Below are positions 23,548 through 48,400 of a stretch of 64,000 nucleotides of DNA, one piece after another (position 1 is the first letter of the stretch; each line of letters opens with the position of its first letter). The translations under genes and the position numbers were made by a program. This DNA is from Giardia intestinalis (taxonomy: Eukaryota): NCBI GenBank assembly GCA_000002435.2, contig CM018792.1. One strand, written 5' to 3'. The notes beneath the pieces are model-generated. The model saw nothing but the letters and a program-made list of their open reading frames with translations, searched no databases and had not been told where the DNA came from.

Positions 23548-24417
23548 TCAGCTCATATTTGCATTTATGGTGGTATACATCTGTGGTGCAGGACTGACGC
23601 ACCCTCCTGCTCTCGGAGCCGTCAAAATAAAGGGAACGTATGTGAAGGGGGCCTGGCTGAAGAAGGAGGCTGGGGGTGGCGGGTAAGACATGGGCACATA
23701 CCCGTGCGGAGCGGCGGGGTAGGGGAGATTGATGAACGATTGATTAGGCATGAGAGGAAGCAGGGTAGGGTCAGGAAGAGAGACAATCCCCCCGGGAACA
23801 TACTCTATGGGGCACGGAGAAAGTTGCGAAGAAATTTGCGAAGAATGCTGTGAGGAATGTTGTGAGGAAAGTTGCGATACCTCCACTGGTGTGTTTGCTT
23901 CTGGAGCCTTGGGCTTATCTGCCTTTTTGCGCTGCGCTCTCGGTCTGTACGGTCTTCGTGATGATATCTTAACTCCGCATTCTTCTAATACCGCACGAAC
24001 ACTGTGGGTACGAAGCGCGTTATTGTAAGTCATACGCAACTCCTGGCGTGGATATTTCGCGCTAAAGCGCTTGTGTATCTCTTTATAAAACTCTGCGTCG
24101 ATAGCTCTTCTATCACGGATACCCCCAATTATAATTGACCTGATTGCTTCTCGGTCTTCGTTTGTCATCTTCACATCCAGGATGTTCCGAGAGTGGGTCT
24201 CACGATACCAATGATAGATCCGATTGCGATCTTGGTTGAGGGCGGTTGCTATCTTGCGCCAATTGATAGGAGTTTTAATGGCATAGGCGTACAGCTTCCG
24301 TGGAGTGCGGATGAGTGTTTCTACGTCCTCAGAGACACCGCGAGTGACAATAATTTGTGAAGCAAGTTCCCGAAGGATAGACTCTTGCAGTTCCGATGAC
24401 ATACTAGGATAAACCAT
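23548..24417 (-). CDS. Myb/SANT-like DNA-binding protein (289 aa), with SQHS repeats and a Pro/Tyr-rich C-terminus
   Basis: True ATG at 24415-24417. The segment INWRKIATALNQDRNRIYHWYRETH matches the Myb-repeat core W..IA..L..R.....HW (compare c-Myb [21 protein letters not shown]). The C-terminus carries a SQHSSQHSSQISSQ repeat and a PYPAAPHGYVPMSYPPPP tail. Confidence 0.45.
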   Translation of the reverse strand: MVYPSMSSELQESILRELASQIIVTRGVSEDVETLIRTPRKLYAYAIKTPINWRKIATALNQDRNRIYHWYRETHSRNILDVKMTNEDREAIRSIIIGGIRDRRAIDAEFYKEIHKRFSAKYPRQELRMTYNNALRTHSVRAVLEECGVKISSRRPYRPRAQRKKADKPKAPEANTPVEVSQLSSQHSSQHSSQISSQLSPCPIEYVPGGIVSLPDPTLLPLMPNQSFINLPYPAAPHGYVPMSYPPPPASFFSQAPFTYVPFILTAPRAGGCVSPAPQMYTTINANMS

Positions 24418-25157
24418 GGAATTCTGATTCTTTAATGCCTAAAACCTTTGAATTAATATAGTAGAGTAAAACCCGGACTAGAACCTTGTAGGCCGACGTA
24501 TTGCTGAGCAATATGATTATCAGGCTTCTAAGTGACTCCCAGCAAAAGGCCCCGACCGATGTCTTTTAATCATGCCTACAACTATATGAACCCATCTAGG
24601 ATTAAAAGAATTGCCTCTTGCCTGTAGCTAAAGTAACCGACTACTTGGAGGTAAGGCCGAGCACCTTATGGTTTGACTGTAGACCGAGTTGGACGATTAA
24701 ACTAATTGCTAAAAACAACGGTCAAGAAATGCCACCCACTAGTGTTACTAACAGTAGCTACAGCAACACCAAAAATCTTTAGAACCTACATCGTATGCCA
24801 AAAATGGCAAAATCCGGGTCCAAAAAGAAAATATCTCAACGCATTTCCAGCGCTAGCGAGTCAGGGCATCCTGTACTGACTACGGAGAGGTCCTATGTAG
24901 CTTTATAATCCAGTCGGCGAGTATGTGCAAGCCCGTGATCCGGATGAGACTTTGCATTCATTCAGTAGCAAGACATGCAAACGCTTTTTGTGCTGAAGCC
25001 TTGGCGATGCATGTATTTGGAGGTGTCTTAGCTGGAAATACAGCATTATCTACGGCCGCAAAACGTAGTTGTGTCTTCGTTTGCCATGTCCTCTACCTTG
25101 CGAGGGCAGGTTTGACCACGACGTCCCGACACAGGTTCTTTAACGTTGAGCACACGT

Positions 25158-25321
25158 AATCTAACATGCTAATCTAACATGCGTATCCGTCAAATTCCTG
25201 CTTGTAGTGATCCTGATCCAACACACAATGAGAATCTAACATGGAATGAATTGGTTGCTGTTAGGCATAAGCAGCAGATGGTCACATTCTTTCACGGTCT
25301 GCTCCCCCAGAATCTGACATG
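25158..25321. repeat. Four dispersed copies of the 11-mer AATCTAACATG (fourth copy AATCTGACATG) within 165 bp of a gene-free region
   Basis: Copies lie at 25158-25168, 25171-25181, 25233-25243 and 25311-25321. Each is followed by C or G. Confidence 0.5.
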
Positions 25322-26504
25322 CTAAGCGGGGCAGTTGGCGAGTCGTCAGGTGAAGATGAAAATTGCGGGATCTTCTTATGCTGCGCAACGAACCGCTGTC
25401 CTCCCTCACGCGGTCTCCTGCATTGGCCTCTAATTGTGATGAGTGCCACCAAAAGGACGTAACGATGGCAGGGATGGATACCGCGATGGGATTGGACAAC
25501 GATCCTTTAAACGACTCTGAATAAAGCCTGAGCACAAAGCTTGTGAACGCTCAACGTCAACCGGAACAGTTACATACGCAGATTAACGAGAAGAACGAGA
25601 TTATATATGCGTATGGGTCCAAAGGGACTGCGCCAAATTTATTTAGCTATATTTCGGATGCAAATTTCACACACCTCCAATTTACAAGGGATGGTTTTAA
25701 TTCTTTTGAAACAGGATTAGAATTACTAGCTGCCAACTTCGCCTACGTGGTCAAATGCTCATGACTTCACAAGAATCTCAGATGGCGACTTTTCTTTGCC
25801 ACTTCGAGTTTTCAGGAGTTCTAACCCTAATCATAGAAGGATGTCAGCCATTCAAGACATACAAGCTCTTTCAGAGATGATTGGACAGGTGCCAAACGAA
25901 GCACTAGATGAGCCTGTTACCACCAATAACACGCTGCTGATGCATGCAATACGTTTTGGATAACCGTTTTGGCCTGAAAACACTTTTTGAGACGTGCCAG
26001 AATGGCTGCCTGCGAAAGGGAAATAATCTCTAGTTTCTGTGGGAACGGTGGTCTTACGAATCTTGCGTTGCACTTTAGCAGTTGGAAGAGAAGCAGGTAT
26101 GGCGAGTAATCAATATACGATTACTCTAAAATCGTCGTGTGGATAGAGCAGGACTTAAGATCCTGAGGGATTCTTCTACCACAAGAGGAGTACGTGTGAA
26201 ATAGCGTGAGAAAAGCACCCTACTCATGCTATAGGCACGGAAACTACGACATGGTTGTTCCGATGGCCTCAGACTCATGGGTGTTATCAAGGGGGTCAAG
26301 ATGAAGAATTCTGAAGGAGAAATTTATCCACTCACACCGGTTAAACACGGTAATCTACCCCTGGCAAACCTTTTATTAAAGGGGTTAGAACCTCTACAAC
26401 CGAAAATTTCCCGAAAAAATGAAAGAGTTGAATTGGTGGCTGCAGTTCTGGCTCTAGTTCTGGTTGCCGCCCCTCGGAAGGCGTCCAGACCGGTGGTAAG
26501 GTAG

Positions 26505-28067
26505 TCAGCTGGTGTCAAGAGCGTCTTCTGTGAGCTTTAATATCTTCTTTATCCTGTTCTCGAACCGGAAAAGGATCGAATCGGTAGAGTACGTCGTCAA
26601 GTTGTTTTCAAGGCAATCTAGCTGCTTGTACAGACGACTGAGTTTTTGCTTGAACGCGGGCTTATTGCCGCGAAGCTCCTGGAACTTGTCGGAGAACAGG
26701 ACTGTCATTATGTACCGTGAAAAGTCATAGAGCCATTGGAAGTTTTTGATATAGACAGCATCTTGCTTCTGCATAGCATCACCTGCCGTGCTGTGCACGT
26801 TCTCGTGTATATCTGACTGAATTTGCTGGTAGGGGAACTCCTTTCCGCTCTCCTGGCGAGAAAAGCACGACATAAGGGCCTTCTTGGAGAGGGTGTCTCC
26901 ACCCATGCCTGCTGCAGCATGCCGGGTCCTAAGAAGCTCCCTGAAGGAATTATTCTTTTTGGTGATTTCCTCGTGCGGCATTCCCTCGTTAGAAAGTTTT
27001 TTTGCAGGCCAGTTAATGCTCTTTAGTGGTAGGCTTCGCTTTAGAGGCGGCTCGGAGTACACCCCATCTAATATGCAGGTGTTAACCATTTTTTCGTAGT
27101 CTATGATGTGTGCGTTTAGCAGGTTTCCGTGCCCAATGTCCTTCATGAGAAGCATGTTGTAGGCTTGTATGGATCGAATCAGAACAAAATTGGATGCGTT
27201 GCGGTAACAGTTATGAATGTCGTCGCCTACGCCATACGATGTGTGCGGTTGGAAGAGGGCACTGTTCCCCTGGAGCTTATCGTTAGCGTCCATCACTGTC
27301 AAGAGATTCACCGTACTTCCACCGTTGGTATCATATAGTAAATCATCTATCTTGCACCTGAAGCCTTTGGAGGGCGTGTCTGCTGACTCTTCCTGAAGGT
27401 TGTGGGAACCGAACAGCGTAATGTCTCCAACAACACTTAGAAGATTGATGTGAATGTTGTTAATATCGAATAAGTTTCTGAAGCGATCGTGCTTATTGCT
27501 GAAAGAGCGCTTGATAACGTTGAGCAGGTGTGTCATGGTCTTGCTGGAGTCGTCCATAAAGCTAGTGCTGGGCATTATGGTAGTCTTACGAGTCCCTCCA
27601 GGACCAGATGTCTTGAACTCAGTGATGTAGTTACTCTTAGCGTGATCATCAAATTCAAAGATGACGTGAAGCCAGAAGTCAGACTCAAAGTTGGGACCCT
27701 CCTTAGAAACAGTATCGTACAGGGCTTTGATGTTAGGATAAAGACGGAAGATCATGTCCTTGTAAGCAGGGCTAACGACGGCCTCCAGTGGCTTGGAGTC
27801 GGCGTCTTGGTGGACCCTGCGGATGGAGAATCCATTTAGCTCCTGAAACTCCACATGCTTATGTGGAATAAAGGAAATGACCGGCTCAAGGAGTGCTGCA
27901 GTCTGGAGCTTGGGGTTGAAGCGCATGAGCTTCTCTTGCTGGCTGTAAAGATCATAAAATTCTTCATCACTTAGTATTTTATTTTGCCCGACAAGCTGGG
28001 CATAGCTATCATGCTCCTGATCGCCTATCTGAGTAAGGATCTCCTTGATCTTACTCGCCGTATCCAT
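26505..28067 (-). CDS. Hypothetical protein (520 aa)
   Basis: A long ORF with a true ATG at 28065-28067. There is a weak GS…(17)…IDDLL arrangement reminiscent of nucleotidyltransferase folds, but it is not convincing. No family is assigned. Confidence 0.55.
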   Translation of the reverse strand: MDTASKIKEILTQIGDQEHDSYAQLVGQNKILSDEEFYDLYSQQEKLMRFNPKLQTAALLEPVISFIPHKHVEFQELNGFSIRRVHQDADSKPLEAVVSPAYKDMIFRLYPNIKALYDTVSKEGPNFESDFWLHVIFEFDDHAKSNYITEFKTSGPGGTRKTTIMPSTSFMDDSSKTMTHLLNVIKRSFSNKHDRFRNLFDINNIHINLLSVVGDITLFGSHNLQEESADTPSKGFRCKIDDLLYDTNGGSTVNLLTVMDANDKLQGNSALFQPHTSYGVGDDIHNCYRNASNFVLIRSIQAYNMLLMKDIGHGNLLNAHIIDYEKMVNTCILDGVYSEPPLKRSLPLKSINWPAKKLSNEGMPHEEITKKNNSFRELLRTRHAAAGMGGDTLSKKALMSCFSRQESGKEFPYQQIQSDIHENVHSTAGDAMQKQDAVYIKNFQWLYDFSRYIMTVLFSDKFQELRGNKPAFKQKLSRLYKQLDCLENNLTTYSTDSILFRFENRIKKILKLTEDALDTS

Positions 28068-36869: not shown

Positions 36870-39698
36870 TTAAAGGAAATCTGAATTTCTATTTAATTTC
36901 CTAAGGTCAGAGAAGGACTGACTCTTGGTTTCCCGAGAACCACCCTCTACATTTATACTCTGTTTGCCTGAGGCCTGTAGCTTCTCTATGCATTTCTGAA
37001 TATCTGCCCGCGAACCCGTAACTGACCGGGGCTTCTGGATTCTTATCTTCTCCAGCTTGACATCCGTTATAGGCTTGAACAAGCCGGTTCCATAAAAAAT
37101 ACTAACACGCTCAGAAGTACTATCATGAAGAGAGGAACGTATATCATCGTCCATCAAATCACTAATATAGCACCGTTGCAGCAAGTCTGGAGCAGATAAA
37201 ATTCTCCGTGTGACTAAGGGAGCCTGTAAGGATCTGTTTTCACAAAGGGATAGTCTACAACGTGGTGGGGACGCCTTTGCTAGAGGTGCACTCCTTATTG
37301 GAGTAGAGAAAATTGGAGATAAAGTTGTAGTGTTGATACTTATTGCACAGGCTTCGGGATCTAATGCAACTGTCAAGTGTGGGTCGGCTGCCCACGCTCC
37401 GTGGCCATCAAAGGCATCTATGGACGCTAATGAGCTAACCGTGTGGACGCTACCCTCTGTCCATGCAATTCGATCAGAGGCGCTGTCTGTGGGTCGATAT
37501 CGCATTGGGGTAGGCTTCATGTTAAAGCGCCGAGTGGCCCGGTATGGTACTCTATGGTCAGATCTGCCCGTAACCTCAACTGCCCAATCCGGTGGCTTGA
37601 GTAACTGGTCACGATCACCCAAACAAGAGCTCTGGTCGGTTATTACACAGGTGGTACTCTTATGTGTCTGCTCTGGGCATCCAGCTGATTCCTTGCCAGC
37701 AATGTGTTTTGAGGCAGTCAAGTAGCTGTCAGAAAGTGAATGATTCTTACACTCCTTATCTTTAGACATTTCCTTCTTGTAAGGTGAGGTAGCCAGATCA
37801 ACATTGGGCGCCATGCTGCTTGCTCTTGTGTCTGTGGAAACGTCAAGGTCAACGACAGGATCAATCTTGACAACAGCCCCTTTACTGCCTCCTCCAGGTC
37901 CATGCTTGTGCCTCAGAAGCTCCTTGACAGATAGAGGCGTTGGAGCAATGCACGTGGTAACAGATTCACTATCTATTACAGGAGTGGGGTTAATCTGGGG
38001 AACCGCTAGTGACGATGCATTGCAGTAGAAGGTCTGAAGTGAGGATGGGTTAGTTGCGTTGCGGTGTGATTCGGTCCTAATGCTTGCAGATGCAGTGTGG
38101 GTACCAATATTAGGGTTGGTGTGTTCTAAGAATTGAGAGTCAATACTGGCAACAGAAACGCCTTTGCTTAAGGTGCTGGAGGGCAATCTCTTGGGGGACT
38201 TTAGCTGTCCACTGCCTCTGTTACTTTCACTTTCTGGTCCTGTTGATTGGCAGAGAGAGCTGAGCTTAGACGCCCGTACACTCTTCTTTTCCTTCTTCTT
38301 TAGAAGCTGTTTGCTCTCGGACACACTGATGTTGGGAGGTACTGAATCTGTCACGGAACTTAGCTTTAATGCAGTGGAAGACTTATTTGGCTCTAATATT
38401 CCAGACTCTATGGGTTGCAATGAGGCATCAAGTGTGTGAGGAACGCGTACAAGGGTTTTAAACGCGGGTGATAGGCATATATCATCTTCTGTTGATCTGC
38501 TCTGGTCTGACGGGGTCTCTCCTCTTTGCAAAGGTGCCAGATCATCTACTTTCATAGGAGGAGACATCTCTCGATGCTCGAGTACGTGGCTTACAGATGG
38601 TGTTGTTGCTTCTGGATACTGGGAAACGAGCTCTGTAGATACGGTATTGAGCAGGAAGACATCCGGCCCCAACTCTGATACCATGTCTTCCTCTGTGTTG
38701 AAGTCAGCTGTGTTATCTATTTTCCTTTCATTACTCCCTAAATCTATAGTGCCAGGCTGGTCATTTTCTGCTTGAATAGACTCTATTACTTGCTTGAGAG
38801 TCATCGGAGACTTCTGGGGCGGTGATATATGTAACTTGGTAGGCTTCTCCTTTTCACCTTCCGGTTCCCAAAAGTGGTTCTTCTTCGTCGCCGAATGAAT
38901 AGCCATACGAGAGCGTATCGCCCGATCCATTGTAGCCCCCGGAAATGCTTGCTTGCTAAGGTGCTGAGGAGATCCAAACTGGGTGACTACTACAGGGGTG
39001 ATTGCTGTTCCTTGGAGTGATGGCAATTGAAGACTGACCTTCACAGGATGCCTTTGCGCTGCTACATGCGCTGCTGCTGCAGTTCCTGCAGCTGTATGAC
39101 TAGAAACGTGTCCGCTGCGTAAATGCTCACGAACAATCTCGGATTGAGGGATCTGGTAATCTCCAGGAGAGGTCTGCAGACCCGGATGTGAGGTGCCTGC
39201 CGGAGTAATACGAATTGATGCTGGAACTCGTTGTGAGAGAGCATTCCCATGTGACCGTGACACTGTTTGCGGAAGTAAGCGAGTTGCGTCGATAGTGTTA
39301 ACAGTCTTGGTGGTATTCCCTCGCATGATACCCTGTCGGTCTAATGAACGTGCTGCGGCATATGAGTTGGTAGTGTGTTCACCTGATTCTAAAACCGACA
39401 GGGTGGTGATGTAAGAGCTGCTGTCTCCTTTGGTAGAATCAAATGTACTTGAAAGTGGATTGATAAGTGATACTCCGTGCTTAGAGCGAAAATGAGGCGC
39501 ACTTCCGTACGCCTTCGTGTATCCCTGTGTAGTTCCAGATGCATACGGCGTTTTCACTGCACTCACAGGGCCTGCCTTCTTCCCTTGCATCTCAGCAATG
39601 GACAGAAGTAAGTGTGATTCCCCGGACGCAGATCTCCCAGGGTCCTGGTTGGTTGACGCAACTATAGCGTCATCCAGAGCAGCAAACCTGAATGGCAT
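36870..39698 (-). CDS. Hypothetical Ser/Thr/Pro-rich protein (~942 aa)
   Basis: The track ORF starts at a TTG at 39738-39740. The first ATG is at 39696-39698 (MPFRFAALDD…). Composition is low-complexity and S-rich. An AGTAAAT signal for the upstream gene lies directly after the neighbouring stop at 39753. Confidence 0.5.
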   Translation of the reverse strand: MPFRFAALDDAIVASTNQDPGRSASGESHLLLSIAEMQGKKAGPVSAVKTPYASGTTQGYTKAYGSAPHFRSKHGVSLINPLSSTFDSTKGDSSSYITTLSVLESGEHTTNSYAAARSLDRQGIMRGNTTKTVNTIDATRLLPQTVSRSHGNALSQRVPASIRITPAGTSHPGLQTSPGDYQIPQSEIVREHLRSGHVSSHTAAGTAAAAHVAAQRHPVKVSLQLPSLQGTAITPVVVTQFGSPQHLSKQAFPGATMDRAIRSRMAIHSATKKNHFWEPEGEKEKPTKLHISPPQKSPMTLKQVIESIQAENDQPGTIDLGSNERKIDNTADFNTEEDMVSELGPDVFLLNTVSTELVSQYPEATTPSVSHVLEHREMSPPMKVDDLAPLQRGETPSDQSRSTEDDICLSPAFKTLVRVPHTLDASLQPIESGILEPNKSSTALKLSSVTDSVPPNISVSESKQLLKKKEKKSVRASKLSSLCQSTGPESESNRGSGQLKSPKRLPSSTLSKGVSVASIDSQFLEHTNPNIGTHTASASIRTESHRNATNPSSLQTFYCNASSLAVPQINPTPVIDSESVTTCIAPTPLSVKELLRHKHGPGGGSKGAVVKIDPVVDLDVSTDTRASSMAPNVDLATSPYKKEMSKDKECKNHSLSDSYLTASKHIAGKESAGCPEQTHKSTTCVITDQSSCLGDRDQLLKPPDWAVEVTGRSDHRVPYRATRRFNMKPTPMRYRPTDSASDRIAWTEGSVHTVSSLASIDAFDGHGAWAADPHLTVALDPEACAISINTTTLSPIFSTPIRSAPLAKASPPRCRLSLCENRSLQAPLVTRRILSAPDLLQRCYISDLMDDDIRSSLHDSTSERVSIFYGTGLFKPITDVKLEKIRIQKPRSVTGSRADIQKCIEKLQASGKQSINVEGGSRETKSQSFSDLRKLNRNSDFL

Positions 39699-39752
39699 TA
39701 CTCTAAACGAGCTGCCGCGAAAATCCGGTGCTTTTTTCAAGCGATGATTTAC

Positions 39753-42786: not shown

Positions 42787-45399
42787 ATGGACAACAAGAG
42801 CATCTGCTCCAAGTTCAACAACAGGTTCATAGTGAACGACAATCCGGGAGGCGATGATTCACAGATAATTTTGAGCTCGGAGAAGGTCAACGTTTTGGAC
42901 CTCTTCCAGGGAGACTACGTGCGGCTTAAGGGGCGCTTTGGGAAAACCACCCACGCTATGGTCCAGTCGAGGGAGGATGTTGACAAGATAGTGGTTCTGA
43001 TGAACAAAACCATGCGTGCCAATCTGGGGGTCAATCTCGGCGATATCGTCATCCTGTACCCTGCCCAAAACCTTCCTTATCACAAGCGCATCAAGGTGAT
43101 ACCCTTCGAGCAGGATCTCGAGGGGCTCAATATTGCAGGATATACTGTGAAGCAGGGCGAGGACGGCAAGCCTGCCCCGGCGCCCTTCCCCGGTCCCACG
43201 TACGACCTGTTTGACATTTGCATTGCGCCATACTTCAAGGACAAGTGCCGCCCCGTTACTGAGGGTAATACGTTTAAAGTCATGACGACTAGCTTGCCCG
43301 TAAACCGCGAGATAGAGTTTAAGGTGGTTCTTACAGACCCCTCTCCAGCGTGCATCGTCATGGATGGGGGCGAGATCTTCTATGAGGGCGAGCCCATAGA
43401 TAGAGATGAGCACGAGCGCGAGAATACAAAGGTAGGCTACTCAGACCTTGGAGGCCTCGGGAAGGAGCTGGGAATGATCAGGGAACAAATTGAGCTTCCT
43501 CTACGCCACCCAGAGCTCTTCAAGTACCTCGGTGTCAAGCCTCCTCGGGGAATTCTTCTCACGGGTCCCCCAGGCTGCGGTAAGACCACTATCGGAAAGG
43601 CCATCGCAAACGAGGCTGGGGCGTACTTCTTTTTACTAAACGGTGCTGAGATCATGTCATCCATGGCTGGCGAGTCCGAGAAGAACCTGCGCAAGGCGTT
43701 CGACATTTGCGAGCAGGAAGCCGAGAAGTCTGCAAAGGAAAATGATGGTGTGGGGTGCGCTATTCTGTTCATTGACGAAATTGACTGTATTGCCGGAAAC
43801 CGTGCCGAGAGCAAGGGCGAGGTTGAGAAGCGTGTCGTTTCCCAGTTGTTGACCCTCATGGATGGGATCAAGCCCCGCTCCAACGTCATCGTCCTCGCTG
43901 CCACGAACAGACCTAATGTCATTGACCCCGCTCTGCGCAGGTTTGGAAGGTTTGACAGAGAGATACAGATAAATGTTCCCGACGAGAACGGGCGTCTGGA
44001 GATCCTCTCCATCCACACCCGCAAGCTAAAGCTCCATCCGGACGGCGTGGATATTGTCCGCATTGCGAATGAGACAAACGGGTACGTCGGTGCTGACTTG
44101 GCCCAGATATGCACGGAAGCTGCGATGATGTGCGTCCGTGAATCTATGGAGATGGTGCTAGATATGGAGAGTGAGGAGAAGCTGACCGATGAGCAGCTCA
44201 ATAAGATCTTCATCACTGATAGCCACTTTACGGCTGCAATTTCGAAGGTCACACCGAGTACGCTTCGCGAGACCGTTATTGAGATGCCCACAGTCACCTG
44301 GGATGACATTGGCGGTCTTGAGCACACAAAGAGAGAGCTCATCGAGCTTATTCAATATCCCATCCGCTATAAGGAGAAGTATCAACAGATGGGCATCGAG
44401 CCTTCCCGTGGTGCTCTTCTGTGGGGTCCTCCTGGTACAGGAAAGTCCCTTCTTGCAAAAGCAATTGCCAATGAGTGTGGCTGCAATTATATAAGCATTA
44501 AGGGTCCGGAGCTCTTGTCGAAGTGGGTCGGCGAGTCAGAGCAGAACATTAGGAATATCTTCGACAAGGCCAGGCAGGCTGCCCCGTGCGTCCTCTTCTT
44601 CGATGAGATTGAGTCCATTACCCAACATCGTGGAACGTCTGCTAGCGGAGGCGGAGAGGTCACTGATCGGATGCTCAACCAAATCCTCACGGAGCTCGAC
44701 GGTGTTGGTGTGCGTAAGGACGTCTTTATAATCGGAGCCACAAATAGGCCAGATACGATTGACTCCGCTCTTATGCGTCCCGGCCGTCTTGACACGCTTA
44801 TCTACATCCCGCTACCAGATTATCCGTCGAGAGTTGCCGTCCTCAAGGCACACCTCCGAAAGTCAAAGGTTAACGAAAAGGAGGTTTCTCTTGAGCAGAT
44901 AGCGCAGGTCACGGACGGATACTCCGGTGCAGATCTGGCAGAGATATGCAGCCGCGCCTGCAAGTATTCCATCCGTGAGAATGTCGAGGGCTTTTCAAGG
45001 GCCATGTCGGCCTTTGAATCTATGAAGAAGTCGTGGCTCGATAGCCACGGCGGCGTTCTGACACCGGAAAAGGAGAAGGAGTTTGCTGAGCACGAAGAGA
45101 AGATCTCTGAGCGCTTCTCTGACACGAGCATTTCTGGACGCCACTTCGAACAAGCGATCAGAGAGAGCAGGAAGAGCATCTCTGAGGAGGAGATGAGACG
45201 CTTCGAGGTCTTTAAGCAGAGCTACAGTGGGGGAATTGGCGACGGCCTCGGGTCGATGGGCAACGCAGGCCGCAGAAACGCAAACCCCGCCATCGCGAAC
45301 TTCTCGTTCAAGGTAGATGGTCAGACAGGAGCTCGCCAACAACCCCAGGGCGCTGTCCGATCAAAGGCTGGGGCAGGAAACGAGGCAGATATGTTTTAA
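42787..45399 (+). CDS. CDC48: CDC48/p97/VCP-type AAA+ ATPase (two AAA domains)
   Basis: The track ORF starts at a TTG at 42628 and reads through the A/T repeat. The real start is the ATG at 42787 (MDNKSICSKFNNRFIVNDNPGG…). This aligns with the p97 N-domain (…LFQGDYVRLKGRFGKTTHAMV ~ [21 protein letters not shown]). D1 has Walker A GPPGCGKT and Walker B ILFIDEID. D2 has GPPGTGKS and VLFFDEIES. The segment IPLPDYPSRVAVLKAHLRKS corresponds to [20 protein letters not shown]. An AGTAAAT signal lies at 45412-45418. Confidence 0.95.
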   Translation: MDNKSICSKFNNRFIVNDNPGGDDSQIILSSEKVNVLDLFQGDYVRLKGRFGKTTHAMVQSREDVDKIVVLMNKTMRANLGVNLGDIVILYPAQNLPYHKRIKVIPFEQDLEGLNIAGYTVKQGEDGKPAPAPFPGPTYDLFDICIAPYFKDKCRPVTEGNTFKVMTTSLPVNREIEFKVVLTDPSPACIVMDGGEIFYEGEPIDRDEHERENTKVGYSDLGGLGKELGMIREQIELPLRHPELFKYLGVKPPRGILLTGPPGCGKTTIGKAIANEAGAYFFLLNGAEIMSSMAGESEKNLRKAFDICEQEAEKSAKENDGVGCAILFIDEIDCIAGNRAESKGEVEKRVVSQLLTLMDGIKPRSNVIVLAATNRPNVIDPALRRFGRFDREIQINVPDENGRLEILSIHTRKLKLHPDGVDIVRIANETNGYVGADLAQICTEAAMMCVRESMEMVLDMESEEKLTDEQLNKIFITDSHFTAAISKVTPSTLRETVIEMPTVTWDDIGGLEHTKRELIELIQYPIRYKEKYQQMGIEPSRGALLWGPPGTGKSLLAKAIANECGCNYISIKGPELLSKWVGESEQNIRNIFDKARQAAPCVLFFDEIESITQHRGTSASGGGEVTDRMLNQILTELDGVGVRKDVFIIGATNRPDTIDSALMRPGRLDTLIYIPLPDYPSRVAVLKAHLRKSKVNEKEVSLEQIAQVTDGYSGADLAEICSRACKYSIRENVEGFSRAMSAFESMKKSWLDSHGGVLTPEKEKEFAEHEEKISERFSDTSISGRHFEQAIRESRKSISEEEMRRFEVFKQSYSGGIGDGLGSMGNAGRRNANPAIANFSFKVDGQTGARQQPQGAVRSKAGAGNEADMF

Positions 45400-45411
45400 A
45401 GACGTATCCAA

Positions 45412-45418
45412 GGCCAGT
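45412..45418 (+). terminator. Putative polyadenylation signal AGTAAAT after the CDC48 stop
   Basis: It lies 13 nt after the TAA stop at 45397-45399. Confidence 0.4.
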
Positions 45419-45463
45419 AAATAGGTGTTGGTTTTCTACAGGCCTGCAACGGCAACCAAAAAT

Positions 45464-48400
45464 ATGCTTTTGCTCGGTTTACTCTCCGCGTCCTACCTTT
45501 TTATATTCTACAAGCCTGCTTCCTTCGTTGCCGATGAAACTGCGTTTGCAGATCTACAGAGGATCGGCCAGCAAAGCTGCTTAAACAGCGCTAGTCCATC
45601 CCCCATGCCACAGGGGTTCCAAACCCGGTATGAGAAGGATATCACCGCTGAAGCAGCCAAGTGCCAAAACACATGTCAAGTAAGTGGCGGAGCTCCTTGG
45701 ACTCAGTATAATAATATAAATAACCCCGATCACCTATTATATAATGTTATGTGCATCTATCTAATGGCCCTAGCCTATAAATGCCCTCAGTCCACGCACA
45801 ACTCAGCAGATAGCTATAGGAGCGCGATAGAATACGCAGTAAAGTATCTAGCAGACCACGGACTTCAGACAACATATTTAACTCAAGATACCAATACAAC
45901 TAGGACTCTAATTCTTGCTGTGGAGGTCCCCACTTATATCTCTAAATTTCTTCCATTACTTGTGGAAGCGTCATCCTCTCCATCACAGTCATCTGATATG
46001 CAAACTCACTTGCTGAAGATAACAGAAAACATATTTTCATACGTCCCACAATTCACTGATTTGGCAAGCTGTTCAGCCAGGTCAAATGTGTGGAGTGACC
46101 CGGCCAAGTGCCCATACTCAGGTGTTCAGCTGGAAGCGTTTCTAAATAGTATATTCCTTACTCTAAACAAGTTTATCCAAGATAAAGTCAACACCCTAGG
46201 AAATGCGGAGTCCCTGGCGGCATACTTTCGACAAATGCCTACAAACTACTCCCAAACCAGCAATTATTACGTCGATGGCTACCGACTGGACTCGTCCATA
46301 GATCTGTACTACTCCATGCCAATGCAGGGCAGCACAGCATTTGACATTATCTTAGAGACTCTGCGTGCTGTGGAATACTTTGGGTCTGAGGAGAACGAGT
46401 GCGGCTCACGAATATTGGCGACGCTTTACTCTTTCTTCAATCACTCCATTCTTCCATACATGCAGCAATGCAGGCTCTCCGATGCCATTGCCGGTGCACT
46501 GGTGGTCGACGGAGTTCTTGATGGGCATGCTCGCCACGAGATCGCCATAGCGTTGTTTGCTCACATGCACGTACTAGCTGTTTCTAAGGGGTACATACCC
46601 AATTCATTGCCTGAAAATGTAACTGCTCTACTGAATGCGTTCTCGTACCAGGCCAATCAGTGTTTTTCAGCATCTTCTGCAAAGCTTCCCGCTAAATTTG
46701 CATATGGATGTCATTGTGCACTTAGTTTACTTGGGATCAATGCCGTCGCACATTATCATGCAGACGACTTGAAATCAAAGCGGACAGGGGTCCTCTGGCA
46801 GCCGTATGCTGACACTATTTCGATAGTGACCAAGGATCTCGACATCGTGTACGCGATGAGCTCTTACAAAACAGCATACTACAATTGTATTAACAACACA
46901 AATCGTCGTGGGTGGTATCAGAGGGCAGGACACCAATACGTTTATCCAAAAGAGCATCCTAACAAGTACATTAATTATTATCCCTCAATGGAGACCTTTG
47001 CATATCAGGGCGTTGTTGCAGCCAGGGCGCAACTTAAGGATTGTCAGTACCAAAATAACAAGGCAAGTGATAAGCGTGGGTCTACCAACGCCGGATTGGT
47101 TACCGTTGATACTGATGCAGCAATCGTCTACGAGCACATCCATCCTGATACCCGCAATGCATACTTAAAGCTCTTCTACCTTGAGGAGGCGGCAAACGCG
47201 GACGTGAAGAACACTTTCAGCAACAATGTCGCCATTCATACTCTTCTACTCTCCAATATGACTGCAGCTAATCCGTCTACCCAAATACATGATAACATAC
47301 TCGCAATCCCTCTTGGCAGCACAAAGGCTGTCGTTAGTGTGTTCTCTCTCGCAGGACAAAGAGTAGACACAGCCCCTGGAGACGATTGGACAAACACGGA
47401 CAGCGTGAAGTATGCATACGTCAAACTATCGTTTCCAGCCGATCAAGGGGCAGCTGACCAAAGCCCCACGCCCTCGCGTGGCCCAGAGGCCACATCCTAT
47501 GTCACAGGGGTGTGCTTCCATGCCTTCAGTGGGCCAGTAAAGGGACGCATCAAAGAGCTATCAGGGAGCTATGCTGAGCAAGGAGGTGTCTTACCACCAG
47601 ATTCTTCATCAAGTAATGTAAGGCAATACTTTTTGCAACTTCGGATGCGAGTTATGCCGGGCACGGAGTCCTCAAGTAAGTTAGCAATCTACACGTACTT
47701 TCCACGGCTCAGCTCCAGTGTTACAGAGACCGAGTTCAACAAGCTGTGTTCACAGTACAATGGCTCAGTATTCATCAATGGGCAACCAAATCCATCAAGC
47801 TACACATATCAGCAGATCGAGAACGTGCACTTTATCGTTGGAAAGTCCATTGCAAAGAGATATGTGGAGTTTCACGCCATGGCTTTCCTGAAGCCATCAG
47901 AGAGCGTGTTTTACCGAAATGCCACACTTCAGGCGAAGAGTACCGGATTCGTTGCCTTCAAAGCACGCGAGCGCACGCTGCAAATGTCGCTGGTGGACGT
48001 TACCCAGGACAGGCGAGCCGTGAACATGACCCTCTTTAATCTGTCTATTTACGACTTCCTGGAGACCAGCTGTAATCCCAAGAATGCCGATGATCAGATA
48101 CAGCTCTCTGTTCCAGGAATCAACGCCGTATTCTGCTCATGCAAGATGACCTTCAAGCTTACCTCATCCGAAGAGCATGCGTTATTCATGCATAAGGTGA
48201 CAATTGCCTCTGTGACCGTAACGATTTTAATAGCTATTGCGGTCATCATTACCATAGTTGTTATTTTGATCATGAAGAAGCGGTTAAAAGGCGGAGAGAA
48301 ACGTCTACGAAAGGTCCGTGAGAGGAAACAGATAACTGACGCTCAGATACGCTCAGATGCGGTAATAAAGAAGATGGCCAGGCACAGAGGAGAGAAGGAG

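What the first reader, a model, noticed from the sequence alone, without database searches (positions are those of the whole stretch)
24418..26504. A 2.1-kb gene desert in an otherwise wall-to-wall coding region, carrying four copies of the 11-mer AATCTAACATG
Elsewhere in this window intergenic spacers are mostly 12-320 bp, and two convergent gene pairs overlap (by 11 and 17 bp). Here about 2.1 kb has no ORF longer than 99 aa. Most of the small ORFs start with non-ATG codons. The region contains AATCTAACATG at 25158, 25171 and 25233, plus AATCTGACATG at 25311, within 165 bp. It also holds A-tract-rich segments (ccaaaaatggcaaaatccgggtccaaaaagaaaatatc at roughly 24800). Candidate explanations are an unannotated ncRNA locus (snoRNA or another structured RNA), a degenerate retroelement or pseudogene remnant, or a regulatory or replication-related element.
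Basis: seen in the sequence. Interest (0 to 1): 0.5.

Follow-up and report, generated by a model that had tools for sequence, protein, structure and literature searches.

The report
Dead ankyrin-repeat gene in Giardia
The 2.1-kb "gene desert" is the decayed remains of an ankyrin-repeat gene that is still intact in other Giardia lineages; the loss was already listed in a 2010 comparative-genomics supplement, so the finding is ordinary.

Summary
The window is Giardia intestinalis WB (assemblage A). The gap lies between GL50803_11149 and GL50803_15353.

In perfectly syntenic loci of assemblage B and two more distant Giardia lineages, the same gap holds an intact 956-959-aa ankyrin-repeat gene (Protein 21.1 / ARP family). 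That protein aligns collinearly to the WB gap on the + strand (E 1e-52 to 1e-62).

The WB copy is dead:
- Its start codon is ACG and codon 6 is a stop.
- It has 29 indels, 25 of them frame-breaking, and lacks about 1.1 kb of the 3' half.
- Assemblage E (P15) shares at least 10 of these lesions, so the gene died before A and E split.
- WB-P15 divergence is equal at all three codon positions (0.32) and matches four-fold sites of neighbouring genes (0.30), so it evolves neutrally.

The A-tract is the relic promoter just upstream of the dead start codon. Two of the four 11-mers are a polymorphic 13-bp tandem duplication, and none is present in P15.

Jerlström-Hultqvist et al. 2010 (Additional file 9) already lists this locus as "Pseudogenes in WB and P15". 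Two short conserved islands remain unexplained.

The parts
24418..24507 (-). Promoter / 5' flank of the live gene GL50803_11149. It is not part of the dead gene.
   Evidence: It lies immediately upstream of the ATG at 24417. WB-P15 divergence here is 0.12-0.15 against 0.32 overall, and blocks such as TTTAAT and AGTAGAGTAA are invariant in all five lineages.
24667..24683 (.). Site where sub-assemblage AII (DHA2 and three Logan isolates) carries a 3.1-kb insertion bearing a reverse-transcriptase domain. These 17 bp are duplicated as a target-site duplication. WB has the empty site.
   Evidence: blastn of L011 against the window breaks at 24667 and 24683, with TCTACAGTCAAACCATA on both sides. The insert is 3,122 bp, 61% GC, with a Pfam RVT_1 hit at E 9e-15. 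Three AII contigs end 32 nt into the same junction.
24790..24838 (+). Relic AT-rich promoter/initiator region of the dead ankyrin gene.
   Evidence: It aligns to the roughly 45 nt directly upstream of the ATG of the intact orthologues. CAAAA...CCAAAAA(C/G)(A/G)AAAT is conserved in all five lineages. That it is a promoter is inferred from its position and from the known short AT-rich Giardia promoters (PMC3610916).
24839..24841 (+). Former start codon, now ACG.
   Evidence: It aligns to the ATG in P15, B, L002 and L003.
24854..24856 (+). Premature stop (TAG) at codon 6, shared with P15.
   Evidence: Projected onto the assemblage B reading frame, this codon is CAA in B and TAG in both WB and P15.
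24839..26504 (+). Body of the ankyrin-repeat (Protein 21.1 / ARP) pseudogene. It corresponds to codons 1 to about 565 plus the last roughly 16 codons of the 956-aa orthologue.
   Evidence: Collinear tblastn HSPs cover aa 2-90, 96-153, 174-305, 312-424, 445-480 and 514-562 at E 1e-52 to 1e-62. There are 29 indels (25 not a multiple of 3) and 5 in-frame stops. WB-P15 divergence at codon positions 1/2/3 is 0.317/0.321/0.323.
25158..25183 (+). 13-bp tandem duplication (AATCTAACATGCT | AATCTAACATGCG), which accounts for 11-mer copies 1 and 2. It is a frameshifting insertion specific to assemblage A.
   Evidence: P15, B, L002 and L003 have one unit in the 5-way alignment. One assemblage A isolate (L009, SRR21529627) has a single unit, so copy number is polymorphic.
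25233..25243 (+). 11-mer copy 3.
   Evidence: It aligns without length change to ancestral codons (..CPILNEL..). P15 has CGTCTAATTTT here.
25311..25325 (+). 11-mer copy 4. It matches copy 1 at 14 of 15 positions (AATCTGACATGCTAA).
   Evidence: the repeat finder family D1. It aligns to ancestral codons (..LEVDIA..), and P15 has AAATAGATACG here.
25623..25700 (.). Conserved island inside the pseudogene, including a 40-nt run (25656-25695) identical in WB and P15. Unexplained.
   Evidence: 6 of 78 sites differ, against a neutral level of 0.30. The permutation P for the longest identical run is 2e-4.
26283..26432 (.). Second conserved island. It contains a quasi-palindromic match to the Giardia ncRNA 3'-end motif: 26368-26379 on + and 26372-26383 on -. 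Unexplained.
   Evidence: 22 of 150 sites differ. The motif matches are and its definition in PMC3510501. The motif count in the window is not above chance (4 against 2.84 expected).
26443..26457 (+). Deletion junctions. A 123-bp in-frame deletion shared with P15 lies between 26443 and 26444. A WB-specific deletion of about 982 bp lies between 26456 and 26457. GTTCTGG recurs at 26445 and 26457.
   Evidence: 5-way alignment and indel list. The exact breakpoints are ambiguous because of the short repeat.

Best explanation
The desert is a unitary pseudogene: the neutrally decaying remnant of a single-copy ankyrin-repeat gene (Giardia 'Protein 21.1' / ARP family). That gene once lay on the + strand between GL50803_11149 and GL50803_15353.

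Shown:
- The gene is intact and under purifying selection in assemblage B and in two more distant Giardia lineages.
- It was disabled in the common ancestor of assemblages A and E, which share a stop at codon 6 and at least 10 indels.
- Since then both copies have accumulated substitutions at the neutral rate, plus independent frameshifts and deletions. WB has lost about 1.1 kb of the 3' half, which held the strongest ankyrin repeats.

- No long ORF, because the frame is broken about every 70 bp.
- The A-tract is the old AT-rich promoter just upstream of the dead start codon (function inferred from position).
- The 11-mer cluster is mutational debris. One 13-bp slippage duplication, still variable in copy number among assemblage A isolates, gives two copies. 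Two nearby sites were brought to the same word by lineage-specific substitutions, either by chance or by templated quasi-repeat correction (inferred).

Nothing indicates that the region as a whole does anything now.
For: Identity of the organism and flanks. Exact protein look-ups give GL50803_11149, 15353 and 11152 of G. intestinalis WB.

Synteny. In L002, L003 and L004 the gene order 297 aa / 520 aa / [956-959-aa Ank gene] / 272-276 aa / 229-238 aa / 577-578 aa is the same as around the window gap. The Ank gene carries Pfam Ank_2 at E 4e-81. In assemblage B it is annotated 'Ankyrin repeat protein' KWX12168.1 / ESU41467.1, and in GS it is split as GL50581_3705/3706.

Homology. tblastn of the intact proteins against the WB gap gives six collinear + strand HSPs at E 1e-52 to 1e-62. 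The P15 gap gives the same pattern.

Lesions.
- WB has 29 indels (25 frame-breaking) and 5 in-frame stops.
- P15 has 25 indels (23 frame-breaking) and 8 stops.
- The intact lineages have 0-1 in-frame indels and none that break the frame.
- Shared lesions include +8 at nt 54, -11 at nt 447, +8 at nt 961, -123 at nt 1698 and the codon-6 TAG.

Neutrality. WB-P15 p-distance at codon positions 1/2/3 is 0.317/0.321/0.323. Four-fold sites in four flanking genes give 0.30. The intact orthologues give 0.13-0.17 / 0.07-0.10 / 0.42-0.48.

Other points.
- No A or E protein clusters with the orthologue, and the next hits are 29%-identical paralogues.
- The lesions are not assembly errors. Independent assemblies of several A isolates are 98.7-99.7% identical across the parts of the gap they cover.
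- The published record calls the locus 'Pseudogenes in WB and P15, two Protein 21.1 in GS', at CH991764(131279..133252), with old models GL50803_11143/29429/11148 (PMC3091692, Additional file 9).
Against: - Two islands (25623-25700 and 26283-26432) are 2-4 times less diverged between WB and P15 than the neutral level. Not every base of the remnant can therefore be shown to be free of constraint.
- After collapsing the duplication, the 11-mer clustering is still rarer than chance (1 in 3,000 shuffles).
- Pfam no longer detects ankyrin repeats in any + strand frame of the WB remnant. Family assignment rests on orthology, not on a domain hit.
- No transcription data could be examined.
Confidence: 0.96

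Rival explanations
1. The region, or part of it, is an unannotated non-coding RNA locus such as a snoRNA or other structured RNA. The conserved islands would be its functional core and the CCTTYNHTHAA-type motif at 26368-26383 its 3'-end processing signal.
For: - Two islands are conserved between A and E well below the neutral level: 6 of 78 and 22 of 150 sites differ, with a 40-nt identical run at permutation P 2e-4.
- The few differences in island 3 are not biased towards synonymous positions (sequences, my codon count).
- Island 3 contains a full match to the 12-nt Giardia ncRNA 3'-end motif on both strands.
- An AT-rich relic promoter survives upstream.
Against: - Rfam has no hit at gathering score. 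The only hits up to E 10 (E 0.9 and 3.3) lie outside the islands.
- There are no tRNAs.
- MFE z-scores of both islands on both strands are -0.07 to -1.0.
- By eye I found no canonical C/D or H/ACA box arrangement next to the motif.
- The motif occurs 4 times in the window against 2.84 expected, with two of the four being the same palindromic site. Hudson et al. report that motif copies inside genes are not cleaved.
- The 11-mer cluster that prompted this idea is absent from P15.
Confidence: 0.08
2. The desert is a degenerate retroelement (GilM / GilT / GilD-like) remnant.
For: In sub-assemblage AII the same spacer does hold a 3.1-kb, 61% GC insertion with a reverse-transcriptase domain and a 17-bp target-site duplication at 24667-24683.
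Against: - WB has the empty site, and the duplicated 17 bp are present once.
- blastn of the DHA2 locus containing the insert gives no hit in the window apart from the two syntenic flanks.
- Pfam finds no RT in the three + strand frames of 24839-26504.
- GC content is 45-46%, like the surrounding genes.
- 24839-26504 is accounted for by collinear homology to the ankyrin gene.
Confidence: 0.01
3. The small ORFs left in the remnant now encode functional micro-proteins. The candidates are the 73-aa ORF at 25543-25764 and the 75-aa ORF at 26277-26504 (old model GL50803_11143).
For: - Both ORFs are open in WB, and the corresponding frames are also open in P15. The 73-codon frame ends at the same TGA in both.
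- Both overlap the conserved islands.
- The indels inside the second ORF (9 and 123 nt) are multiples of three.
Against: - Outside the islands the two 73-aa products are only about 56% identical, as expected for neutral drift.
- In the 26301-26456 segment I count about 14 non-synonymous and 5 synonymous codon differences, which is roughly the neutral ratio (sequences).
- The accession numbers of the 2020 models flanking the gap, KAE8304530 and KAE8304531, are consecutive, so no protein model lies between them.
- The WB 73-aa ORF starts with GTG.
- The least-mutated segments of a dead gene are expected to hold its longest surviving ORFs.
Confidence: 0.03
4. The 11-mer cluster is a functional cis-element, such as a transcription-factor, origin or small-RNA target site array, that arose in assemblage A.
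For: There are four copies in 165 bp against 0.13 expected in the window. After collapsing the duplication the arrangement still occurs in only 1 of 3,000 shuffles. Copies 3 and 4 each arose through 5-6 lineage-specific changes towards the same word.
Against: - It is absent in P15 and in the intact orthologues.
- One copy is polymorphic within assemblage A.
- There is no other occurrence in 64 kb, even with one mismatch, nor in any fetched locus outside this site.
- It lies 740-900 bp from the nearest live start codon, whereas Giardia promoters are short and adjacent to the gene (PMC3610916).
- Substitution density at copies 3 and 4 is in the upper 5-10% of 16-nt windows, not extreme.
Confidence: 0.02

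Closest known systems
Giardia 'Protein 21.1' / ankyrin repeat protein (ARP-1) family pseudogenes
   Same: The ancestor is an ankyrin-only protein of about 956 aa, typical of this large Giardia family. The 2020 WB re-annotation counts 267 ARP-1 genes plus 5 pseudo copies (PMC7000408). The 2010 three-genome comparison reports 16 candidate pseudogenes, all in common gene families. Its Additional file 9 lists this very locus as a pseudogene in WB and P15 (PMC3091692).
   Different: This copy is much more decayed than a one-frameshift pseudogene. It is dead in two assemblages through shared lesions, Pfam detects no Ank signal in it, and its 3' half is deleted in WB. I could not check whether it is one of the five 'pseudo copies' in the current GiardiaDB/NCBI annotation.
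Giardia ncRNA genes with the 12-nt 3'-end processing motif (Hudson et al. 2012)
   Same: An AT-rich element lies upstream and a full match to [T/A/C]C[C/A]TT[T/C][A/T/C][C/T/A]T[C/T/A]AA lies in a block conserved between WB and P15.
   Different: In assemblage B the site lies inside a coding gene and does not match the motif (ACCTTTTACTGA). I saw no snoRNA or snRNA boxes, and there is no fold signal or Rfam hit. The motif frequency in the window is at chance.
Giardia non-LTR retrotransposons (GilM / GilT / GilD)
   Same: Sub-assemblage AII carries an insertion with a reverse-transcriptase domain, a 17-bp target-site duplication and an AGTAAA near its 3' end, in the spacer of this same desert.
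   Different: The WB sequence under study contains no such element. I did not establish which Gil family the AII insert belongs to.

Membership tests
Unitary (non-processed, positional) pseudogene | An intact orthologue sits in the same syntenic position in related lineages. | tested here: met
   A 956-959-aa gene lies between the same neighbours in L002, L003 and L004.
Unitary (non-processed, positional) pseudogene | There is significant collinear sequence homology to the intact gene. | tested here: met
   Six collinear tblastn HSPs, E 1e-52 to 1e-62. 5-way DNA alignment.
Unitary (non-processed, positional) pseudogene | Disabling lesions are present: lost start codon, premature stops, frameshifts. 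| tested here: met
   ATG changed to ACG, a TAG at codon 6, 25 frame-breaking indels, 5 in-frame stops and about 1.1 kb deleted.
Unitary (non-processed, positional) pseudogene | Coding constraint is lost: substitution rates are equal at all codon positions and match the neutral rate. | tested here: met
   Codon positions give 0.317/0.321/0.323, against 0.30 at four-fold sites of flanking genes. Intact orthologues are strongly position-biased. Exception: two short islands are below the neutral level.
Unitary (non-processed, positional) pseudogene | No functional paralogous copy explains the sequence, so it is not a duplicated pseudogene. | tested here: met
   The best non-orthologous hits to the intact protein are only 29% identical. 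No A or E member is in the orthologue cluster.
Ankyrin-repeat protein (Pfam Ank / Ank_2; Giardia Protein 21.1 / ARP-1) | Ankyrin repeats are detectable by profile. | tested here: not met
   The intact assemblage B orthologue scores Ank_2 at E 4e-81. The three + strand frames of the WB remnant have no Ank hit at E up to 1. The remnant is therefore a descendant of the family, not a recognisable member.
Giardia ncRNA gene (Hudson 2012 criteria) | A 3'-end motif CCTTYNHTHAA is present downstream of an AT-rich initiator. | tested here: inconclusive
   The motif is present at 26368-26383 on both strands, but at chance frequency in the window: 4 against 2.84 expected.
Giardia ncRNA gene (Hudson 2012 criteria) | The promoter, motif and RNA are conserved in WB, P15 and GS, and lie in an intergenic position. 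| tested here: not met
   They are conserved in WB and P15 only. In assemblage B the site is inside the coding gene and the motif is broken.
Giardia ncRNA gene (Hudson 2012 criteria) | A discrete transcript is detected (primer extension, northern blot or RNA-seq). | not testable with these tools
   No expression data were available.
Known RNA families (Rfam 15) | The covariance-model score reaches the family's gathering threshold. | tested here: not met
   There are 0 hits at gathering score in the window. Inside the gap only snoR53Y (19.3 against 43 bits) and sR55 (16.6 against 35 bits) appear.
Non-LTR retrotransposon remnant (GilM / GilT / GilD) | Reverse-transcriptase or endonuclease homology, or similarity to a known element. 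| tested here: not met
   Pfam finds no RT in the three + strand frames of 24839-26504. The window has no similarity to the AII insert. Named Gil consensus sequences were not compared.

The most novel reading that the evidence does not exclude
Two short stretches of the dead gene are still held by nucleotide-level selection in both assemblages A and E. They are 25623-25700, and 26283-26432 with its match to the ncRNA 3'-end motif. On this reading, small functional elements embedded in or exapted from a coding gene outlived the gene's death. They could be a short ncRNA, a processing signal or a protein- or RNA-binding site. The evidence does not exclude this. The alternatives are a local mutational cold spot, inter-assemblage gene flow or a statistical tail.
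Probability: 0.1. Interest if true: 0.4.

Novelty: already known. Interest (0 to 1): 0.1.

Why it matters
It matters little beyond bookkeeping. The result explains a conspicuous hole in a very gene-dense genome as a lineage-specific gene loss. An ankyrin-repeat gene is kept under purifying selection in assemblage B and in two more distant lineages, but has been dead since before assemblages A and E split.

Such presence/absence differences in the large ARP/NEK families are of some interest for differences between assemblages. This locus, however, was already flagged in 2010.

There are two practical uses:
- The remnant is a clean internal yardstick of neutral evolution in Giardia. It gives an A-E neutral p-distance of about 0.32, many small frameshifting indels, and a GC-site rate higher than the AT-site rate.
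- The old hypothetical models GL50803_11143, 29429 and 11148 are fragments of the dead frame and should not be treated as genes.

Tried and rejected
- Rfam at gathering score on the whole window, and at E up to 10 on the gap: nothing credible.
- ARAGORN: no tRNA or tmRNA.
- RNA folding of both conserved islands on both strands: z-scores -0.07 to -1.0.
- Pfam on the three + strand frames of the remnant: no Ank, no RT.
- Search for other copies of the 11-mer. There are none elsewhere in the window, even with one mismatch. There are none in the fetched loci except the orthologous assemblage A sites.
- Literature search for the 11-mer and the locus tags: no relevant main-text hit. The locus was found only in a supplement.
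- Test of whether 11-mer copies 3 and 4 are extreme clusters of WB-derived substitutions. They are in the upper 5-10% of 16-nt windows, not outliers, so templated mutation is only a suggestion.
- Attempt to find more lineages carrying the pseudogene, in order to test the islands. The protein search with the 73-aa ORF found assemblage A copies only. An exact 30-mer scan of the JGI metagenomes found nothing.
- Small-ORF hypothesis: codon-level comparison shows no excess of synonymous change.
- Assembly-error explanation: rejected, because independent assemblies of several A isolates agree across the parts of the gap they cover and P15 shares many of the lesions.
- Identity of the runs ERR3333378 and ERR3333379. 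They are not named in any searchable paper. I suspect they are the dog assemblages C/D of project PRJEB32663, but that is an inference from accession range and divergence, not a verified fact.
Full report
**Where we are.** Exact look-ups of the flanking ORFs identify the window as Giardia intestinalis WB (assemblage A), on the 2.76-Mb chromosome. The ORF at 23548-24417(-) is GL50803_11149 and the ORF at 26505-28067(-) is GL50803_15353. Their 2020 protein accessions, KAE8304530 and KAE8304531, are consecutive, so no protein model lies between them. The 2007 accessions XP_001704700 and XP_001704695 leave room for four models. One of those, XP_001704697.1 (GL50803_11143), is the 75-aa ORF at 26277-26504.

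**The observation.** All of it is correct.
- The gap is 2,087 bp and the longest ORF inside is 99 aa. Most small ORFs start with GTG or TTG.
- Other spacers in the window are about 13-300 bp, and the two convergent overlaps of 11 and 17 bp exist.
- AATCTRACATG occurs four times in 64 kb, all at 25158-25321, against 0.13 expected. A one-mismatch search adds nothing.
- Rfam finds no family at gathering score in the window, and only two E of about 1-3 snoRNA-like hits in the gap. ARAGORN finds nothing.

**What fills the gap elsewhere.** I fetched the contigs that encode orthologues of the 520-aa neighbour.
- Three lineages have identical gene order, and the gap holds an intact gene of 956-959 aa on the strand that corresponds to window +. 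These are L004 (assemblage B, run SRR3177763), L003 (ERR3333378) and L002 (ERR3333379).
- That gene overlaps the 3' end of the 520-aa gene by 8 bp, has seven Pfam ankyrin matches (Ank_2 at E 4e-81) and is named 'Ankyrin repeat protein' in two assemblage B annotations. In the 454-based GS assembly it is split into GL50581_3706 and 3705.
- The assemblage E genome (P15, L001) has, like WB, an unannotated 2.6-kb gap.
- I did not verify which lineages L002 and L003 belong to. Their neighbour protein is 80-82% identical to WB, more distant than B at 84%. The run numbers are compatible with the dog assemblage C/D project PRJEB32663. This is inference only.

**Homology of the gap to that gene.**
- tblastn of the intact proteins against the WB gap gives six collinear + strand HSPs: aa 2-90, 96-153, 174-305, 312-424, 445-480 and 514-562. 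They map to about 24842-26432, with summed E of 1e-52 to 1e-62. P15 gives the same pattern plus remnants of aa 705-926.
- In a five-way MAFFT alignment the WB start codon reads ACG (24839-24841), where all four other lineages have ATG.
- Codon 6 is TAG in both WB and P15.
- WB has 29 indels relative to the assemblage B coding sequence, 25 of them not a multiple of 3, and 5 in-frame stops. P15 has 25 indels (23 frame-breaking) and 8 stops.
- The two other intact lineages have no indel and one in-frame 9-nt indel respectively.
- At least ten indels are shared by WB and P15: +8 at nt 54, -1 at 106, 117, 250, 282, 913 and 1224, -11 at 447, +8 at 961 and -123 at 1698. The gene was therefore already dead in the A/E ancestor.
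- WB then lost about 982 bp more of the 3' half, which held the best ankyrin repeats. This explains why Pfam sees no Ank signal in the remnant.

**Neutrality.**
- Between WB and P15 the p-distance at the former codon positions 1, 2 and 3 is 0.317, 0.321 and 0.323.
- Four-fold degenerate sites of four flanking genes give 0.30 (range 0.28-0.375).
- The intact orthologues compared with one another give 0.13-0.17, 0.07-0.10 and 0.42-0.48.
- The gene is thus under purifying selection where it is intact, and evolves neutrally in A and E.
- Independent assemblies of several assemblage A isolates are 98.7-99.7% identical to the window across the parts of the gap they cover, so the lesions are not sequencing artefacts.

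The A-tract string (24798-24835) aligns to the roughly 45 nt directly upstream of the orthologues' ATG. Its A-runs (CAAAA..CCAAAAA[C/G][A/G]AAAT) are conserved in all five lineages. Given the short AT-rich promoters of Giardia (PMC3610916), it is best read as the relic promoter of the dead gene. That reading is inferred, and its present activity was not tested.

The 11-mers:
- Copies 1 and 2 are a 13-bp tandem duplication (AATCTAACATGCT|AATCTAACATGCG). P15 and all intact lineages have a single unit, so the duplication is one more frameshift. One assemblage A isolate (L009) has a single unit, so copy number is polymorphic, as expected for replication slippage.
- Copies 3 and 4 align without length change to ancestral codons (..CPILNEL.. 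and ..LEVDIA..). P15 reads CGTCTAATTTT and AAATAGATACG at those positions.
- Each of copies 3 and 4 acquired 5-6 WB-lineage changes towards the same word. That density is in the upper 5-10% of 16-nt windows but is not extreme.
- With the duplication collapsed, an exact pair within 200 nt plus a third copy with at most 1 mismatch occurs in 1 of 3,000 shuffles.
- I read the cluster as mutational debris, possibly helped by templated 'quasi-repeat correction' between neighbouring look-alike sites. That last step is conjecture.

[quoted passage not shown] 2010 (PMC3091692) has this row: 'Pseudogenes in WB and P15, two Protein 21.1 in GS', P15 contig45(43379..45804), WB CH991764(131279..133252). It lists the hypothetical models GL50803_11143, 29429 and 11148, and GS GL50581_3705/3706. 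The 2020 WB re-annotation mentions 267 ARP-1 genes plus 5 pseudo copies (PMC7000408). I could not check whether this locus is one of them.

**What is left unexplained.** A sliding-window comparison of WB and P15 shows three blocks well below the neutral level.
- The first, 24418-24507, is the promoter of the live gene 11149 and is expected.
- The other two lie inside the dead gene. At 25623-25700, 6 of 78 sites differ, with a 40-nt identical run and a permutation P of 2e-4. At 26283-26432, 22 of 150 sites differ.
- Base composition does not explain them. AT sites diverge at 0.265 and GC sites at 0.393.
- The few differences in the second island are not biased towards synonymous positions (sequences, my codon count), which argues against a surviving micro-protein.
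- That island contains a quasi-palindromic full match to the 12-nt Giardia ncRNA 3'-end processing motif: ACCTTTTATTAA on + and CCCTTTAATAAA on - (PMC3510501).
- Against a functional reading, the motif is not enriched in the window (4 against 2.84 expected). It is broken in assemblage B. No fold signal exists and no Rfam family matches. Hudson et al. note that motif copies inside genes are not cleaved.
- WB and DHA2 show no difference in either island, but only 2.5 differences would be expected there.
- I found no further lineages with which to test this. It stands as a low-probability lead, not a finding.

**Side observation.** In sub-assemblage AII (DHA2 and three Logan isolates) the spacer between the dead gene and gene 11149 carries a 3,122-bp insertion. 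The insert is 61% GC, has a Pfam RVT_1 domain and is flanked by a 17-bp target-site duplication of window 24667-24683. WB has the empty site.

**Verdict.** Confidence is 0.96, novelty is 'already known' and interest is low.

Noticed in passing
window 24667-24683; L011 13402-16523: Sub-assemblage AII (DHA2 and Logan isolates SRR3177750, SRR21529642, SRR21529627) carries a 3.1-kb, 61% GC insertion here with a reverse-transcriptase domain (RVT_1) and a 17-bp target-site duplication. WB has the empty site, so this is a chromosome-internal retrotransposon insertion polymorphism between AI and AII.
   Followed up: partly
window 25623-25700 and 26283-26432: Two islands inside the neutrally evolving pseudogene are 2-4 times less diverged between assemblages A and E than four-fold sites. 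They include a 40-nt identical run. The second island holds a palindromic match to the Giardia ncRNA 3'-end motif. The cause is unknown.
   Followed up: partly
window 25158-25183; L009: The 13-bp tandem duplication that makes 11-mer copies 1 and 2 varies in copy number among assemblage A isolates. SRR21529627 has one unit.
   Followed up: yes
window 240-10074: Head-to-tail array of VSP genes (Pfam VSP, E 1e-42 to 1e-44) on the - strand: four paralogues of 584-634 aa followed by one of 765 aa. Recurrent 175-208-aa ORFs on the opposite strand are probably spurious.
   Followed up: partly
window 10165-13375: GC-rich block (62-65% GC against about 46% nearby). The 442-aa ORF at 10165-11493(-) is GL50803_00111911, a hypothetical gene with at least four near-identical copies on two WB chromosomes and no Pfam domain. 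It looks like a dispersed repeat next to the VSP array.
   Followed up: partly
L004 6001-8871; GS genes GL50581_3705/3706: The intact assemblage B orthologue is one 956-aa ORF in Logan assemblies, and 972 aa in two NCBI annotations. In the GS (ATCC 50581) annotation it is split into 208-aa and 741-aa models, probably because of a 454 frameshift. The 2010 table therefore counts 'two Protein 21.1 in GS'.
   Followed up: partly
window 26445-26463: GTTCTGG occurs on both sides of the junction of the WB-specific deletion of about 982 bp. This is compatible with a microhomology-mediated deletion. The exact breakpoint is ambiguous.
   Followed up: no
window 36870-39740 (-): This ORF also happens to be 956 aa (annotated as 942 aa, GL50803_0029424). 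It has no Pfam hit and is a separate gene, not a paralogue of the dead ankyrin gene.
   Followed up: partly
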